Part shown: one piece after another, positions 7,255 through 42,392 of the stretch
How the letters are laid out: each line of letters opens with the position of its first letter
How positions within the stretch are numbered: position 1 is the first letter of the stretch
Source: Escherichia phage grams
Length of the DNA: 49,530 nt
Sequence record: NC_049825.1
Strand: one strand, 5' to 3'
Notes under the pieces: model-generated
What the model was told of the DNA's origin: nothing
The model's input: only the letters and a program-made list of their open reading frames with translations
Database searches by the model: none
Program-made: the position numbers and the translations under genes

Positions 7255-7845
7255 ATGAAACGCGACATTATCATCCTTAACGGACCGCCAGGAGTTGGCA
7301 AGGATACGCTTGCGGCATACTTAACGGGCCATCGTTACGCAGCCGTTAAAGCGTCGTTTAAACAGCCTATGTTTGATATTGCGTTTTCCATGCTTGGCGT
7401 TTACCGATATGACGAGTTCATTGATCTGTATAACGACCGCGAGCAGAAAGAAAAGCCTCAAGCAATCTTGCAAGGCAAGTCGCCTCGCCAGTTCATGATC
7501 TGGATTAGCGAAGAAGTTATGAAGCCAGCTTTTGGTGAGCAATATTTCGGAAATCGCATGGTTGAGCAAGTACACGAGATGTACAGAGATTTAGCTGTTG
7601 TAATTAGTGATGGCGGATTCCCTGAAGAAATCAAGTCGCTAGTTAAGGCAGGCCATGAAGTGCATATTTGCCGACTGCATCGCGAAGGCTTCACGTTTGA
7701 TGGCGATTCACGAAACTATATTGACCTGAGCGGATACCATCACCGAGTAAAACATTACGACTTCACGATGATTGATGGCGATCCAGAAAAGACTGTTGAC
7801 GAGATCATCAAAACTGTCCAGTGGCAACACATCAAGATCAAATAG
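7255..7845 (+). CDS. deoxynucleoside monophosphate kinase-like P-loop kinase
   Basis: Walker A LNGPPGVGKDT; blocks YAAVKASFKQPMFDIAFSMLGV and VISDGGFPEEIKSLVKAGHEVHICRL recalled as similar to T4 gp1 dNMP kinase. Confidence 0.55.
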   Translation: MKRDIIILNGPPGVGKDTLAAYLTGHRYAAVKASFKQPMFDIAFSMLGVYRYDEFIDLYNDREQKEKPQAILQGKSPRQFMIWISEEVMKPAFGEQYFGNRMVEQVHEMYRDLAVVISDGGFPEEIKSLVKAGHEVHICRLHREGFTFDGDSRNYIDLSGYHHRVKHYDFTMIDGDPEKTVDEIIKTVQWQHIKIK

Positions 7846-7885
7846 CACGAATTGCTAAAAGCGGGGCGCAATGCCTCGCTATAAT
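7840..7885 (+). promoter_or_regulatory. conserved 22-bp element (GAATTG variant) plus -10 (TATAAT)
   Basis: AAATAGCACGAATTGCTAAAAG-N18-TATAAT; stop TAG inside element. Confidence 0.55.
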
Positions 7886-17665: not shown

Positions 17666-17687
17666 CGTTTAACAAAAAATGCTATCA
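17666..17687 (-). promoter_or_regulatory. conserved element in orientation opposite to flanking late genes
   Basis: Plus strand reads GTTTAACAAAAAATGCTATCA; no well-spaced -10 on minus strand. Confidence 0.35.
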
Positions 17688-21401: not shown

Positions 21402-21447
21402 ATGCTACACGATTCATAATCAATTCTTTTAACAAAAAGTGCTATCA
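21402..21447 (-). promoter_or_regulatory. conserved element plus -10 (TAGCAT) pointing leftward, antisense to late genes
   Basis: Minus-strand reading TGATAGCACTTTTTGTTAAAAG-N18-TAGCAT. Confidence 0.4.
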
Positions 21448-32267: not shown

Positions 32268-32692
32268 TGTTCTTTTTGTTCTCCTGCGTTCTCAAATCTG
32301 CGGAGGCGTAAATTTAGAGCAAAAAGTGAGCAATAACAGAGCGCGATATATACAGATAAATATATATACATACATATAAATCAATAAGTTAGTAGTATAT
32401 ATATTAATGTTTGTTCTTTATTGTTATCTGTGTTTTGTGTGATTTTGTGTGCCTGGTGATTTTTCTGTGATTATGCATGTGTCAGTGGTTATGTGTGTCT
32501 ATATATCTATATCCGGCGCAAATTGAGGAACAAGAGAACAAAAAGACAACAAAGATATTTATCAATCACTTACATGTAAGTTTTGTTATCTAAGTTGGCG
32601 AGAACGTTGTTAAAACAGAAAAAACAAAATAACTATTGACTAAACGCATCAAATAGCTACAATGCAGGCATACCAACCAATGAGGGTAAATC
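32268..32692. repeat. AT-rich non-coding region B (diverged paralogue of 3135..3786)
   Basis: Shares AATCAATAAGTTAGT, GGTGATTTTT, TTTTGTTATCT and GTTGTTAAAAC blocks with region A. Confidence 0.6.
32636..32663 (+). promoter_or_regulatory. canonical sigma70 promoter (candidate early promoter)
   Basis: TTGACT-N16-TACAAT about 30 bp upstream of ATG 32693. Confidence 0.6.
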
Positions 32693-38761: not shown

Positions 38762-38780
38762 AAACCCCGCAATGCGGGGT
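38762..38780. terminator. hairpin terminator
   Basis: A-run then CCCCGCAATGCGGGG. Confidence 0.5.
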
Positions 38781-38796: not shown

Positions 38797-39729
38797 TTAG
38801 AGAAGTGATTCAGGCTTGAAAACCTTCCTCTCTATCCCTTGCCTGTAATTATCATTAATCGGCATCATAATTTCAAGTCCTCTTTCCTCGGCAGCAATGA
38901 TCGCGTCACGATCTGTGCTCTTACAGACAACTCGCATTCTTCTGTTGCCTTTATACCTGTAAGCTACAATCTCAATGTTAGTTGCATCAAAGCAGGCCCA
39001 AACCTCCTGACCAGTTGCAAGGTGAATATGTTGCGCATCAATCCAGTCAACGCAAAGATAGATAGTCTTATCTGTACTTCCGGTTCTAACAATCGACCCT
39101 CGCGTGTAGTCCTTTGCTAGAAAAGACTGATTACCTTCTTCATCAATGAAAAGCACATTGCACATTTCATCATCAATTTCATCTGAATGTACCAGGTAAC
39201 ATGGTAACGCGTGAATGTATCGACCATCTTTAACGCCGCATTCATAATAACCATCTTCAGGAGGATATATCCCTTCATAGGTGCTTAGCGGCGTGCGATC
39301 AAATTTTAGTGTTTTTGACATAACGCGCTCGCAGCATTCATGGCTTGCCTGTTTCCCGAACGAATAACCAGAATCACGAGATACTCGCTTATTTGCCTTG
39401 ATCCTATAGTCCTGCGGAACTTTTCCAAGAAATCGGCCCAAAATATTGATCACTTCGCTGTAAGGTTCTCCGGTTAGCTTCATGATCCAACCAATTCCGG
39501 TATCATTACCGCACACGTTGCAGATCGCACCGCCATCGCCTTTTTTATCGCCAAGTTTATCCGTCCATCTGAAGCGATCCTTTCCGCCGCAGTTGGGGCA
39601 AGATTGATGCTTGCCGTTAAAAACTTCATTTGGAAGACCGCAAATACTTTGTAGCGCCTCACGCCACAATCCTTGCATATATGGGAGAACATCTTCCTTT
39701 TGATAAACCATAAAGTTTTCGTTATTCAT
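38797..39729 (-). CDS. DNA primase (zinc-finger type)
   Basis: ATG at 39729 with RBS GAGGTG; [12 protein letters not shown]...CNVCG zinc-binding motif. Confidence 0.6.
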
Positions 39730-39783
39730 ATACACCTCAAACAAAAAGCCTGACAGATGATAACATCATGCCAGGCATTGTTT

Positions 39784-40257
39784 TTAGCAATTAGTGCTTT
39801 CAGGTTTATACAGGAATCCGCCAGGTTCATAATCTGACATTCTTACCACTCGCAACATTTCACGCTTATCACATCTCTTTGTGAGCGGTTTACCATTGGA
39901 ATCAAATCGCAGATCTGGACGGCAGAATGACGCGCGATAGCCTTGGCAGCCATATTTTTTGTAATCGTTATGCACCTTTTGAGCGCCAGCGGCTGAAATC
40001 ATACCGCGAACACGCCACTGATTTACAGTTTGCTGGCTAACGTTAAGACGTTTTGCCATTGCTGACACACTTCCGTAATACTCAATAAGGATATCAAGTC
40101 GCGCTTTTAGCCCGGCACGCACCTCATCTTTTAAAACATAGTATCCTGTAGGGCGCTTGCGCTTTTTCTTATCTTTACCCCGTCGAGTTCCGTTATTGCC
40201 ATTAATTGTGCGCTTGTCAATCTTTCCTGTTGATACTGCGATTCGCTGTTCTTTCAT
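39784..40257 (-). CDS. HTH DNA-binding regulator
   Basis: 157 aa; helix-turn-helix AKRLNVSQQTVNQWRVRG; basic N-terminal region; RBS GGAGAA. Confidence 0.6.
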   Translation of the reverse strand: MKEQRIAVSTGKIDKRTINGNNGTRRGKDKKKRKRPTGYYVLKDEVRAGLKARLDILIEYYGSVSAMAKRLNVSQQTVNQWRVRGMISAAGAQKVHNDYKKYGCQGYRASFCRPDLRFDSNGKPLTKRCDKREMLRVVRMSDYEPGGFLYKPESTNC

Positions 40258-40268
40258 TATTCATTCTC

Positions 40269-40314
40269 CAATAGCATTTTTTGTTAAACGATGATTTAAT
40301 GATTGTGTATTATA
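40269..40314 (+). promoter_or_regulatory. conserved element (variant) plus -10 (TATTAT) for helicase operon
   Basis: CAATAGCATTTTTTGTTAAACG-N17-TATTAT. Confidence 0.5.
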
Positions 40315-40336
40315 CACGCCAAATGGCATTACTCAA
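40309..40336 (-). promoter_or_regulatory. sigma70 promoter for regulator/primase operon
   Basis: Minus strand TTGAGT-N16-TATAAT with TG extension; -10 lies in near-palindrome GTGTATTATACAC. Confidence 0.5.
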
Positions 40337-40346
40337 AGGTTTTAGA

Positions 40347-42392
40347 ATGATTCCAAACATTGAAAAGCAAATATCAGCACTTGGTGAAGCGGTAATTAAA
40401 TCCATTCAGGAGCGATTCACTGTTGGCGAGATTGTGCCTTACCCTTACCAGTGCGTTGCATACGCTGAGATCGCAAAGCGCATGAAAAATTATGAGCATC
40501 CATTCTTTGTTAAAGCGTCCGTATCGGCTGGAAAAACATTGATGTTTGCAATGGTTGCTCACCAGTGCCGGAAAATGGGCTTGAAAATGATGGTCCTTGC
40601 TCGCCAGGCTGAGATTGTGGATCAGGATTCTGAAGAGATAACAAATCTTGGCGTGCCGAACTCCATCTATTGTGCAGGACTGAAGACAAAAAGCGCATAC
40701 TTTCCGATCGTTGTTGGTTCTGAGGGAACTGTAGTTAATGGACTGTTTAAAGCGCTTGGCGACTATGTTCCGCACGTTATCGGGATTGACGAGTGTCACC
40801 AGGTGGATTGGGAAGACCTTGCCGACGCCATAGAGAAAGACGAGTCATTTTTACAAATGACGACGAAGAAAGGCGAAAAAGTACCAAATCCAGATTATGA
40901 CATAACAAAGGGAAGCAGGAACAGAAATACAGAGTTCCTGATTGGTGAGGATGGCTTGCCAATGGAGGGAACAGGCCGCACGCAATACACTGTCATTATC
41001 ATGGAAATGATGCGACGTTGCAGGAAAGCATACGGTCATGAACTGCGCATCTTTGGTATGACTGGATCGGAGTTTCGCGGCGTAGTTCCAATACTGGTAG
41101 AAGATAAAAAGCAGAAAGGATTTTGGCGTGAACAGGTTACTAATATTGACACCAACTACCTAATCAAGTTCGGTTCTGTTGTTCCGACTAATTTTGGCGA
41201 CGTTGGCGATCTCGGGTATGACCTTTCAGAGTTTGAGGCATCCAGTGAGGATGGCGTTGCAGACTTTGACGCTAAAACGCTTCGTAGGATGGAACAAAAA
41301 ATTCATGAAGAAGCGACCATGACAAAGCGCATCATGGCGAAAGTGCACGAGATCTGTAAAAACCGTAACGGTGTACTTGTGACATGTGCAGGCGAAAGGC
41401 ACTGTAAAGAGGCAGCGGCAGCATTGCCGCCTGGAACGACTTACAGGATCATTACTGGTAAGACTGGCGATAACCAGCGCAAGGAGTGGTTGAAAGAAGC
41501 ATACGAGGGAAAGGTTAAATACATCTTCCAGGTGCAGGCGCTAACTACTGGCGTTAACGTGCCGTTTTGGGATACGTCTGTTATTCTGCGTAAGATTGGA
41601 TCTCTTACGTTGCTGATTCAGCTTTTAGGTCGCGGAATGCGACTACTTAAGAAGTGGCATAAGGAGCAAGGATTCCAGAAGGATGATCATCTAGTCATGG
41701 ATTTTTCAGGAACGATGGACGAGCTAGGGGAGCTTTATTTTGATCCGATACTGGAACAGGCGCAGCACCAGAAGCGATTTAGGAACGGTAAAGATCCGAA
41801 GCCTTGTCCTGTTTGCGGAACTCTTAACAGCTATTATGCTCGTCGTTGTATGAACGTAGATGAAAACGGCAACAGATGCGAGTGGTTCTTTAAATTCAGG
41901 ACATGTGATGATCAGATTGACCCGCGCACTAAAAAGATTATTCATCGCGGTTGCGGAACGAAGAATGATATTGCGGCCAGGGTATGCAGACATTGCGACA
42001 TGTCATTGATTGACCCTAACGAGAAGTTAAGCGGAAAGCACTACACAAAAAACGACTGGTTCCAAGTGCAATCTTTCGCGGTTGACATGACGAAAAACCA
42101 GAAAGGGATAATATTTAATTATGAGCTTTCCGATGGCATAGATACTTTCAAGGCGAGAGAGATATTTTTCCCTGAATCTGAAAGCCAAATTTGTCGCGCA
42201 AAATGGCGAAGCGTTGCTCTTAAGCACATACCAGATCGCCGTGTCGCTGGCATGGTCGCGAGCTATCGTAATGCACGTAAAATCATGCAATATGTGAATC
42301 ACATTATGCCACCATCGCGTGTGACTCACCGCAAGACGAGCAAGGGCGAAGATAATTTGTACAAGAAGGAATTTAATTATGGCAATGACTGA
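40347..42392 (+). CDS. superfamily 2 DNA helicase with C-terminal zinc ribbon
   Basis: Walker A SVSAGKTL, DECH box IGIDECHQV, motif VI QLLGRGMR; CxxC pairs near C-terminus; start at 40347 chosen for SD. Confidence 0.75.
   Translation: MIPNIEKQISALGEAVIKSIQERFTVGEIVPYPYQCVAYAEIAKRMKNYEHPFFVKASVSAGKTLMFAMVAHQCRKMGLKMMVLARQAEIVDQDSEEITNLGVPNSIYCAGLKTKSAYFPIVVGSEGTVVNGLFKALGDYVPHVIGIDECHQVDWEDLADAIEKDESFLQMTTKKGEKVPNPDYDITKGSRNRNTEFLIGEDGLPMEGTGRTQYTVIIMEMMRRCRKAYGHELRIFGMTGSEFRGVVPILVEDKKQKGFWREQVTNIDTNYLIKFGSVVPTNFGDVGDLGYDLSEFEASSEDGVADFDAKTLRRMEQKIHEEATMTKRIMAKVHEICKNRNGVLVTCAGERHCKEAAAALPPGTTYRIITGKTGDNQRKEWLKEAYEGKVKYIFQVQALTTGVNVPFWDTSVILRKIGSLTLLIQLLGRGMRLLKKWHKEQGFQKDDHLVMDFSGTMDELGELYFDPILEQAQHQKRFRNGKDPKPCPVCGTLNSYYARRCMNVDENGNRCEWFFKFRTCDDQIDPRTKKIIHRGCGTKNDIAARVCRHCDMSLIDPNEKLSGKHYTKNDWFQVQSFAVDMTKNQKGIIFNYELSDGIDTFKAREIFFPESESQICRAKWRSVALKHIPDRRVAGMVASYRNARKIMQYVNHIMPPSRVTHRKTSKGEDNLYKKEFNYGND

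What the first reader, a model, noticed from the sequence alone, without database searches (positions are those of the whole stretch)
40258..40346. Divergent promoters sharing a palindromic -10 region between the HTH regulator and the helicase
The element-type promoter for the helicase (plus) and a sigma70 promoter for the regulator and primase operon (minus, TTGAGT-N16-TATAAT) use overlapping -10 hexamers inside the near-palindrome GTGTATTATACAC (40305..40317). The adjacent gene encodes a helix-turn-helix protein, so this palindrome is a plausible operator through which it controls both replication operons. That would be unusual regulation for a phage with no lysogeny genes.
Basis: inference. 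Interest (0 to 1): 0.5.

Follow-up and report, generated by a model that had tools for sequence, protein, structure and literature searches.

The report
Shared two-way promoter in T1-like phage
Between the regulator gene and the helicase gene of this T1-like phage sits a compact two-way promoter whose symmetric -10 box is conserved across the whole phage family, but the longer palindrome around it is not conserved, so it is probably not a dedicated repressor-binding site.

Summary
The window is a T1-like virulent phage (Drexlerviridae, Hanrivervirus; 97-98% identical to phages vojen and pSf-1). The sequence facts hold. GTGTAT-T-ATACAC (40305..40317) is a perfect palindrome. It contains a plus-strand -10 (TATTAT, 40308..40313), placed 21 nt after the family's 21-nt direct-repeat box. 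It also contains a minus-strand consensus -10 (TATAAT, 40314..40309) with TTGAGT 16 nt upstream.

This is the standard geometry of a bacterial bidirectional promoter: -11A and -7T pair reciprocally, and the predicted start sites lie 18 bp apart. The 7-bp core TAnnATA is invariant or nearly so across 17 diverged lineages, including the A that serves only the minus promoter. Equivalent minus promoters are already annotated in phages TLS (P57) and SA30RD.

The outer arms (GTG/CAC) are not conserved and do not covary (P=0.42). They also differ between phages with near-identical recognition helices. Palindromes of this size occur at the chance rate in the window (26 seen, 24.6 expected).

The HTH protein is Cro-like, so an operator role is possible, but nothing here supports it. 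The "regulator and primase operon" is doubtful: a strong terminator and a separate repeat-box promoter lie between the two genes.

Verdict: a real, conserved feature, but ordinary in kind.

The parts
40269..40289 (+). 21-nt direct-repeat (DR) box, cAATAGCATTTTTTGTTAAAc. It is the upstream element of the helicase promoter. Its TTGTTA (40281..40286) lies 21 nt from the -10.
   Evidence: Family of 14-17 copies in the window. Matches the TLS consensus aaATAGCACnnnTTGnTAAAA (PMC11447400). Invariant at this locus in 17 lineages.
40308..40313 (+). Plus-strand -10 hexamer TATTAT of the helicase promoter. Predicted start near 40320/40321.
   Evidence: At the fixed 20-21 nt offset from the box, as in the other copies. 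A-11 (40309) and T-7 (40313) are invariant. The start site is inferred, not measured.
40309..40314 (-). Minus-strand consensus -10 TATAAT of the regulator promoter. Predicted start near 40302/40303.
   Evidence: It is TATAAT in 31 of 36 distinct relatives, otherwise TATACT, TATCAT or AATACT. Position 40314 (minus T-12) is invariant although it lies outside the plus hexamer.
40331..40336 (-). Minus-strand -35 TTGAGT with a 16-nt spacer. It overlaps the helicase ribosome-binding region (AAAGG, 40335..40339).
   Evidence: Relatives have TTGAAT (T1, Tunavirus), TTGTCA (Webervirus) and TTGACT (Tlsvirus) at 16-17 nt, and weaker matches elsewhere.
40305..40317 (.). Perfect palindrome GTGTAT-T-ATACAC. 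The core TATTATA (40308..40314) is functional symmetry; the arms GTG/CAC are lineage-specific.
39784..40257 (-). Cro-like HTH protein of 157 aa, the homologue of T1 gp23 and TLS gp57. Ribosome-binding site GGAGAA at 40269..40264.
39738..39776 (-). Hairpin GCCUGGCAUGAUG-UUAU-CAUCUGUCAGGC followed by UUUUUGUUUG. Likely an intrinsic terminator that ends the regulator transcript.
   Evidence: RNA fold -21.5 kcal/mol, z = -4.88. Equivalent terminators are annotated in T1, SA30RD, Sushi and TLS (T57).
39782..39798 (-). DR box AGCACTAATTGCTAAAA overlapping the HTH stop codon, with -10 TATCAT (39762..39757) 21 nt downstream in the hairpin loop. This is the primase's own promoter.
   Evidence: Equivalent to TLS DR10 and the T1 box at 35994-.
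38797..39744 (-). DNA primase (probable ATG at 39729). Terminator at 38780..38764.
   Evidence: Pfam Zn_Ribbon_Prim, E = 1.7e-13. Terminator scan.
40347..42392 (+). Superfamily 2 helicase (homologue of T1 gp22), the first gene of the plus-strand unit.
   Evidence: Pfam ResIII and Helicase_C. Synteny in 16 annotated relatives.

Best explanation
The region is a bidirectional sigma-70 promoter built on one symmetric -10 element (TATTATA, 40308..40314).

Host RNA polymerase can open this element in either orientation. Reading rightward it uses TATTAT and is guided by the family-wide DR box upstream, giving the helicase transcript from about 40320. Reading leftward it uses the consensus TATAAT together with TTGAGT 16 nt upstream, giving the regulator transcript from about 40302.

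The two -10 hexamers occupy the same base pairs: plus A-11 pairs with minus T-7 and the reverse. Only one polymerase can therefore be bound at a time, and the two directions are coupled by competition.

The regulator gene is a small self-contained unit of promoter, gene and terminator. The primase has its own DR-box promoter.

The three outer base pairs on each side, which extend the core to a 13-bp palindrome, are a lineage-specific accident of flanking preferences and not a conserved protein-binding site.

Shown: the sequence geometry, its conservation, and the lack of conservation and covariation of the arms. Inferred: the start sites, activity in both directions, and competition.
For: 1. 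Geometry. Plus -10 at 40308..40313 and minus -10 at 40314..40309 give reciprocal -11A/-7T pairing and 18 bp between predicted starts. This is the most common configuration of bacterial bidirectional promoters (PMC10268837; PMC12825309).
2. Conservation of the core. In 17 genus-level lineages the only invariant or nearly invariant columns between the DR box and the ribosome-binding site are 40308, 40309, 40311, 40312, 40313 and 40314. Position 40314 is useful only as T-12 of the minus promoter. At the other DR promoters of the window that position is A in about 4 of 14.
3. Minus -10. It is TATAAT in 31 of 36 distinct sequences.
4. Specificity. The reverse promoter scores 10/12 here, against 3-9 at the other DR promoters of the window, 4-9 in T1 and 2-9 in vojen.
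5. Need. The minus-strand gene has no other upstream promoter, because the DNA upstream is the plus-strand helicase gene.
6. Independent annotation. TLS P57 next to DR11 and the SA30RD promoter feature.
7. Purifying selection. The 101-nt region is at least 99% identical in 58 records, while the flanking 1.2 kb is 96.9-98.3% identical in the 40 best records listed.
Against: There are no transcription start-site data for any T1-like phage in the library searched, so both promoters remain predictions.

The DR box has no proven function; the TLS authors list a 'stoperator' (a repeated repressor site that blocks transcription), an enhancer site or an UP element as options. Its TTGTTA is 21 nt from the -10, too far for a normal -35, so the plus promoter may need a factor or may be weak.

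In some genera the minus -35 is poor, 3/6.

A palindrome over both -10 boxes, next to a Cro-like gene, is the classic layout for autoregulation. Two Tempevirinae variants (window/WaterSpirit and tonijn) both keep extended dyad symmetry.
Confidence: 0.62

Rival explanations
1. The 13-bp palindrome is the operator of the adjacent Cro-like protein. A dimer binds over both -10 boxes and represses its own gene and the helicase unit together.
For: The HTH domain is Cro-like, and Cro proteins bind dyad-symmetric operators as dimers (my own knowledge). The site covers both -10 hexamers. The recognition helix varies between genera, as operator/repressor pairs do. WaterSpirit carries the same palindrome and tonijn an alternative 7-of-8 dyad.
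Against: The arms are absent in T1, SA30RD, L029 and others, which have 0-1 complementary pairs. There is no cis covariation of left and right flanks: 22 pairs against 20.8 +/- 3.9 in permutations, P = 0.42. Near-identical recognition helices go with different flanks. The site has no second copy, whereas Cro/CI systems use several operators. A 13-bp site is short, with half-site centres about 7 bp apart. Palindromes of this size occur at the chance rate. All conserved positions are explained by RNA polymerase contacts.
Confidence: 0.15
2. The regulator acts elsewhere, for example at the DR boxes or at another site, as an activator or repressor of the DR-box promoters. It affects its own promoter only indirectly: when the rightward helicase promoter is activated, polymerase competition lowers leftward regulator transcription.
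For: The regulator gene is one of only three TLS genes with a canonical sigma-70 promoter, while most other units carry DR boxes. The DR TTGnTA is 21-22 nt from the -10 in every copy, which suggests a helper factor. Activators that stimulate one direction of a bidirectional promoter repress the other through competition (PMC12825309). The protein's N-terminal basic arm is its most conserved part.
Against: The DR box is almost invariant across genera while the recognition helix is not, which argues against helix-to-box recognition. There is no experimental link. The early genes themselves carry DR boxes, so at least some must fire without a phage protein.
Confidence: 0.13
3. Only the leftward promoter is real. 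The DR box is not a promoter element but a stoperator, an enhancer site or a leader-RNA element, and the helicase is transcribed from another start.
For: The function of the DR box is unproven. Three copies in the window lie antisense and directly abut the ribosome-binding site of a gene on the other strand: the HTH gene, the major head gene and the tape-measure chaperone gene. The reverse-complemented box therefore sits in those mRNA leaders.
Against: A -10-like hexamer at a fixed 20-21 nt from the box in nearly all copies, the box orientation towards the downstream gene, and a constant distance of about 76 nt to the start codon fit a promoter. No alternative plus-strand promoter-like site was found in 40258..40346.
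Confidence: 0.1

Closest known systems
Bacterial bidirectional promoters arising from -10 symmetry (Warman et al. 2021, Nat Microbiol; PMC10268837; PMC12825309), for example PacrA/acrR and PsoxS/soxR
   Same: One shared, nearly symmetric -10 element. Reciprocal pairing of -11A and -7T. Predicted start sites 18 bp apart. Divergent mRNAs, one of them for a regulator. Mutually exclusive polymerase binding.
   Different: The start sites are not mapped here. One direction uses a phage-specific upstream repeat box instead of a normal -35. The setting is a virulent phage replication module.
Phage TLS P57 / DR11 and T1 gp23-gp22 intergenic regions (PMC11447400 Table S1; NC_005833)
   Same: Orthologous locus. 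The DR box abuts the regulator's start codon. The minus promoter TTGACT-N17-TATCAT (TLS) or TTGAAT-N17-TATAAT (T1) overlaps the plus -10 by five of six bases. The regulator is followed by its own terminator, and the primase has its own DR box.
   Different: The published annotation lists P57 and DR11 separately and does not note that the two -10 boxes are shared. TLS and T1 lack the 13-bp palindrome.
Lambdoid Cro/CI operator-promoter regions (lambda OR with PR/PRM; P22 and N15 Cro)
   Same: A Cro-like HTH gene next to a divergent promoter region. Dyad symmetry overlapping promoter elements.
   Different: Lambdoid regions have several 17-18 bp operators and separate, non-overlapping -10 boxes. 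Here there is one 13-bp dyad whose arms are not conserved, no partner repressor and no lysogeny module.
MerR-type promoters
   Same: An over-long distance between a -35-like hexamer and the -10 (21 nt here). A divergent regulator gene at a bidirectional promoter, as with SoxR.
   Different: The regulator is Cro-like, not MerR-like. There is no conserved dyad in the spacer, and the spacer is longer than the 19-20 bp typical of MerR promoters.

Membership tests
Bidirectional promoter (shared symmetric -10) | -10 hexamers on opposite strands overlap so that -11A and -7T of each pair with -7T and -11A of the other | tested here: met
   Plus TATTAT at 40308..40313 and minus TATAAT at 40314..40309. 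Kept in all 36 distinct relatives, including the variants TAGTATA and TATGATA.
Bidirectional promoter (shared symmetric -10) | Divergent transcription start sites 7-25 bp apart, most commonly 18 bp | not testable with these tools
   Predicted starts near 40320 and 40302 are 18 bp apart. No start-site data were found.
Bidirectional promoter (shared symmetric -10) | RNA is produced in both directions | not testable with these tools
   Indirect only: genes with ribosome-binding sites on both sides, no other promoter for the minus gene, and selection on minus T-12.
T1-like 21-nt direct-repeat element (TLS 'DR') | Sequence aaATAGCACnnnTTGnTAAAA, pointing towards a gene start about 76 nt downstream | tested here: met
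   cAATAGCATTTTTTGTTAAAc at 40269..40289, differing from the consensus at its two flanking lower-case positions and at one conserved core position (C to T in ATAGCAC), 78 nt before the helicase ATG.
Cro-type repressor with palindromic operator | Protein has a Cro-like helix-turn-helix fold | tested here: met
Cro-type repressor with palindromic operator | Operator half-sites are conserved, or covary with the recognition helix, among relatives | tested here: not met
   Arms are not conserved. No covariation, P = 0.42. Similar helices go with different flanks.
Cro-type repressor with palindromic operator | Operator of about 14-20 bp, usually in several copies | tested here: not met
   A single 13-bp dyad with no other copy at up to 2 mismatches.
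Cro-type repressor with palindromic operator | Protein binds the site as a dimer | not testable with these tools
   Needs a gel shift or footprint, or complex modelling.
MerR-type promoter | A MerR-family regulator binds a dyad in a 19-20 bp spacer | tested here: not met
   The regulator is Cro-like. The spacer is 21 nt, AT-rich and without a conserved dyad.

The most novel reading that the evidence does not exclude
The Cro-like protein is the unknown factor that governs the DR-box promoters of T1-like phages, whose -35-like TTGnTA sits an unusable 21-22 nt from the -10. It is made first from one of the very few canonical sigma-70 promoters in the genome. By switching the overlapping helicase DR promoter on, it would then shut its own promoter off through polymerase competition at the shared -10. 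That would be a self-limiting early-to-replication switch with no dedicated operator.
Probability: 0.1. Interest if true: 0.6.

Novelty: new member of a known kind. Interest (0 to 1): 0.3.

Why it matters
Transcription control in T1-like phages is essentially unstudied, although T1 is a classic phage and Drexlerviridae are among the most commonly isolated coliphages and Klebsiella phages.

This locus gives a concrete, family-wide example of a bidirectional promoter that drives two mRNAs in a virulent phage. It also shows that the only annotated regulator is an isolated unit of promoter, gene and terminator. Both points make the roles of the regulator and of the enigmatic 21-nt repeat box directly testable.

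The feature itself fits an established promoter class and was partly annotated before, so it does not change current understanding.

Tried and rejected
1. Extra copies of the palindrome or its half-sites as further operators: none at up to 2 mismatches.
2. Hairpin or cruciform role: weak as single-stranded DNA (-2.5 kcal/mol, z = -1.15), and the site lies between the two predicted starts, so it is not transcribed.
3. Statistical rarity of the palindrome: rejected.
4. Covariation of the arms across 19 lineages: none.
5. Matching recognition-helix classes to flanking sequence: no correspondence.
6. Variation within the lineage to see whether the arms are spared: the whole 101 nt is at least 99% identical in 58 records. 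The two single differences seen (haarsle, A14a) fall outside the palindrome, so this test has no power.
7. GC skew as a sign of a replication origin at this locus: the skew simply follows gene orientation.
8. Literature search for start-site or transcriptome data on T1-like phages and for gp23 function: nothing found.
9. Full-length structural relatives of the regulator: only uncharacterised T1-like 'transcriptional regulators'.
10. Sigma-28-like or extended -10 readings of the DR promoters: considered by eye and dropped as inconsistent across copies.

Full report
**What the window is.** The 1.2 kb around the finding is 97-98% identical to Escherichia phages vojen and Henu8, Shigella phage pSf-1 and others. 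The whole window is collinear with vojen (Drexlerviridae, Tempevirinae, Hanrivervirus), circularly permuted by about 1.6 kb. It is therefore a T1-like virulent siphophage. The gene order primase (-), HTH protein (-), helicase (+) is the T1 order gp24/gp23/gp22. It is kept in every relative examined, from Tunavirus, Rtpvirus and Rogunavirus to the Klebsiella Webervirus group and a Yersinia phage.

**The observation.** The intergenic region runs from 40258 to 40346. GTGTATTATACAC at 40305..40317 is a perfect 6+1+6 palindrome and is unique in the window. The consensus scan finds TTGAGT (40336..40331)-N16-TATAAT (40314..40309) on the minus strand. At 10/12 it is the best-scoring site in the 5 kb scanned.

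The core AGCACnnnTTGnTAAAA occurs 14 times in the window against 0.18 expected. A looser scan lists 16 matches, this locus among them; the one at 8661- is weak. Together with the boxes at 7844+ and 39798-, which only picks up, that makes about 17 copies. Nearly all of the 15 analysed have a -10-like hexamer 20-21 nt after the box. At this locus the box is at 40269..40289 and the hexamer TATTAT is at 40308..40313.

This box is already described. The TLS re-annotation reports a 21-nt direct repeat, aaATAGCACnnnTTGnTAAAA, in 21 places. [quoted passage not shown] It is also present in T1, Rtp and Rogue1. Its function is unknown; a stoperator, an enhancer site and an UP element are all offered (PMC11447400).

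**Geometry.** The plus hexamer occupies 40308..40313 and the minus hexamer 40314..40309. Plus A-11 (40309) is thus the partner of minus T-7, and plus T-7 (40313) is the partner of minus A-11. The predicted start sites, near 40320 and 40302, are 18 bp apart.

This is exactly the commonest configuration of bacterial bidirectional promoters. In those, the near-symmetry of TATAAT lets RNA polymerase bind in either orientation, and the two binding events exclude one another (PMC10268837; PMC12825309; both cite Warman et al. 2021).

**Conservation.** I collected this intergenic region from 59 loci, which gave 36 distinct sequences. A further alignment covered 17 genus-level representatives, including T1 itself.
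- Between the invariant repeat box and the helicase ribosome-binding site, the only invariant or nearly invariant columns are 40308, 40309, 40311, 40312, 40313 and 40314. Together they form the core TAnTATA.
- Position 40314 lies outside the plus hexamer and matters only as T-12 of the minus promoter. It is A in all 17 lineages. At the window's other repeat-box promoters the same position is A in about 4 of 14.
- The minus -10 is TATAAT in 31 of 36 sequences. The exceptions (TATACT, TATCAT, AATACT) keep A-11 and T-7.
- A TTGnnn hexamer lies 16-17 nt upstream on the minus strand in Hanrivervirus, Tunavirus (T1: TTGAAT-N17-TATAAT), Webervirus (TTGTCA) and Tlsvirus (TTGACT). It is weaker in the other genera.
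- Among all repeat-box promoters of the window, T1 and vojen, only this one has a good reverse promoter: 10/12 against 2-9 for the rest.
- Others have predicted the same minus promoter. TLS lists P57 (ttgactaaatgccatttgcggcatatcat) as one of only three canonical intergenic sigma-70 promoters, right beside DR11. The SA30RD record annotates it too.

The overlapping divergent promoters are therefore real in the comparative sense. No transcript mapping exists for any T1-like phage in the library searched.

**The palindrome beyond the core.** The arms GTG/CAC are not conserved.
- T1 and SA30RD have GTG..GCG and GTG..TCG, with no complementary pairs. Webervirus has TG..CA. Sf12 has GT..AC. Several lineages have none.
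- A permutation test over 19 lineages asked whether left and right flanks complement each other more in cis than when paired between lineages. They do not: 22 pairs against 20.8 +/- 3.9, P = 0.42.
- Left "GTG" and right "CAC" each recur, but independently of one another.
- In Warwickvirus, WaterSpirit carries the window's palindrome while tonijn has GAGTcTATTATAtACTC. This is the one hint of maintained symmetry, and it is an anecdote.
- Palindromes of this size are not rare. The window has 26, and block shuffles give 24.6 +/- 5.4. In this AT-rich segment an arm of at least 6 appears in 14% of shuffles.
- As a DNA hairpin the site is weak, and it lies between the two predicted start sites, so it is not in either RNA.

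**The HTH protein.**
- It belongs to a family confined to T1-like phages: 118 homologues, mostly on contigs of about 50 kb, and PHROG 2856.
- The best-conserved segment is an N-terminal basic arm, DKRTINGNNGTRRGKDKKxRKR. The recognition helix varies between genera.
- Phages with nearly the same helix have different flanks around the -10. The window (VSQQTVNQWR) and tonijn (VSQQVVNQWR) differ in this way. So do three lineages with [ST]HQ[TV]IQQWRKRG, which carry GCGTT..GCCGC, CCACG..CAGTC and GGCGC..CATTC.

An operator read by that helix should not behave like this. The operator idea is reasonable a priori, because a Cro-like protein sits next to a dyad over both -10 boxes. But nothing found here supports it, and several tests go against it.

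**The operon claim.** Just past the HTH stop codon, on the minus strand, lies a perfect repeat-box core (39798..39782). Its -10, TATCAT (39762..39757), follows at the usual 21 nt. That hexamer sits in the loop of a strong hairpin followed by UUUUUGUUUG (39776..39738; -21.5 kcal/mol, z = -4.88). T1, SA30RD, Sushi and TLS (T57, DR10) annotate the same terminator and box. The regulator is therefore most likely a self-contained unit of promoter, gene and terminator, and the primase has its own promoter. Read-through cannot be excluded.

**Mechanism proposed.** The region is one bidirectional promoter. The leftward direction (consensus -10, 4/6 -35) is a standard host promoter for the regulator. 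The rightward direction (5/6 -10, repeat box, no properly spaced -35) drives the helicase unit. Because the -10 is shared, strong firing in one direction should depress the other, as shown for E. coli bidirectional promoters. The geometry and its conservation are shown. The start sites, activity and competition are inferred. I put this at about 0.6, the operator model at about 0.15, a model in which the regulator acts at other sites with indirect feedback at about 0.13, and "only the leftward promoter is real" at about 0.1.

**Novelty.** This is a new, well-conserved member of a known class. Its parts were already annotated in TLS and SA30RD, though the shared -10 was not pointed out. The open and more interesting questions are what the repeat box does with its 21-22 nt distance to the -10, and what the regulator binds.

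Noticed in passing
window 39738..39798 (minus strand): A DR box overlaps the HTH stop codon. Its -10 (TATCAT) sits in the loop of a strong terminator hairpin. Transcripts from upstream would therefore stop here, while primase transcripts would start inside the hairpin's descending arm.
   Followed up: yes
All DR-box promoters, e.g. window 399-, 42796+, 43837+, 47086-; L061 (T1) 38954+, 41957+: The -35-like TTGnTA of the box lies 21-22 nt from the -10 in every copy, too far for sigma-70. The spacer often holds a GC-rich hairpin (inverted repeats enriched, P = 0.012). In T1 several of these hairpins are annotated as rho-independent terminators. The units therefore look like fused terminator-promoter modules in which the T-rich -10 doubles as the U-tract.
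   Followed up: partly
window 17669..17684 (-) and 21429..21444 (-); L061 (T1) 15085- and 18849-: Two DR boxes lie antisense inside the late structural operon. Each sits just upstream of the ribosome-binding site of a plus-strand gene (major head protein, ATG 17733; tape-measure chaperone, ATG 21459), much as the helicase box abuts the HTH gene. The reverse-complemented box would sit in those mRNA leaders. Function unknown.
   Followed up: partly
window 32270..32635: A non-coding, very AT-rich gap of about 370 bp lies between cor (minus) and the exonuclease VIII gene (plus). It contains ATATATAC runs, TTTTGTGTG-type short repeats and long imperfect inverted repeats. A canonical TTGACT-N16-TACAAT promoter follows at 32636..32663, the equivalent of TLS P51. 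It could be an origin or a regulatory region.
   Followed up: partly
window 39784..40257 (protein); alignment A1: The regulator's most conserved part is not the helix-turn-helix but an N-terminal basic arm (DKRTINGNNGTRRGKDKKxRKR, many invariant residues), predicted with low confidence and probably disordered. A C-terminal motif, GYRASFCRPDLRFDxNGKP, is also conserved. The recognition helix is variable.
   Followed up: partly
window 40318..40327: A small dyad, GCCAAATGGC, lies in the spacer of the leftward promoter, at about +1 to +8 of the helicase transcript. It is shared in related form by Hanrivervirus, Warwickvirus and Tlsvirus. Other genera have the usual CAAACGA leader there. An in-frame ATG at 40323 lies upstream of the annotated helicase start.
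   Followed up: no
search hits H1-H5, H24, H25, H102, H107 (MG0656xx records): About twenty GenBank records named 'Campylobacter phage' (one fetched record is flagged UNVERIFIED) are 97-98% identical to this coliphage over 1.2 kb. They are classified as Hanrivervirus and are probably mislabelled or contaminant assemblies.
   Followed up: no
window 7844..7860 (+): A further DR box of the 'GAA' class (AGCACGAATTGCTAAAA). My first, stricter scan missed it. Counting this box and the one at 39798-, the window has about 17 copies.
   Followed up: no
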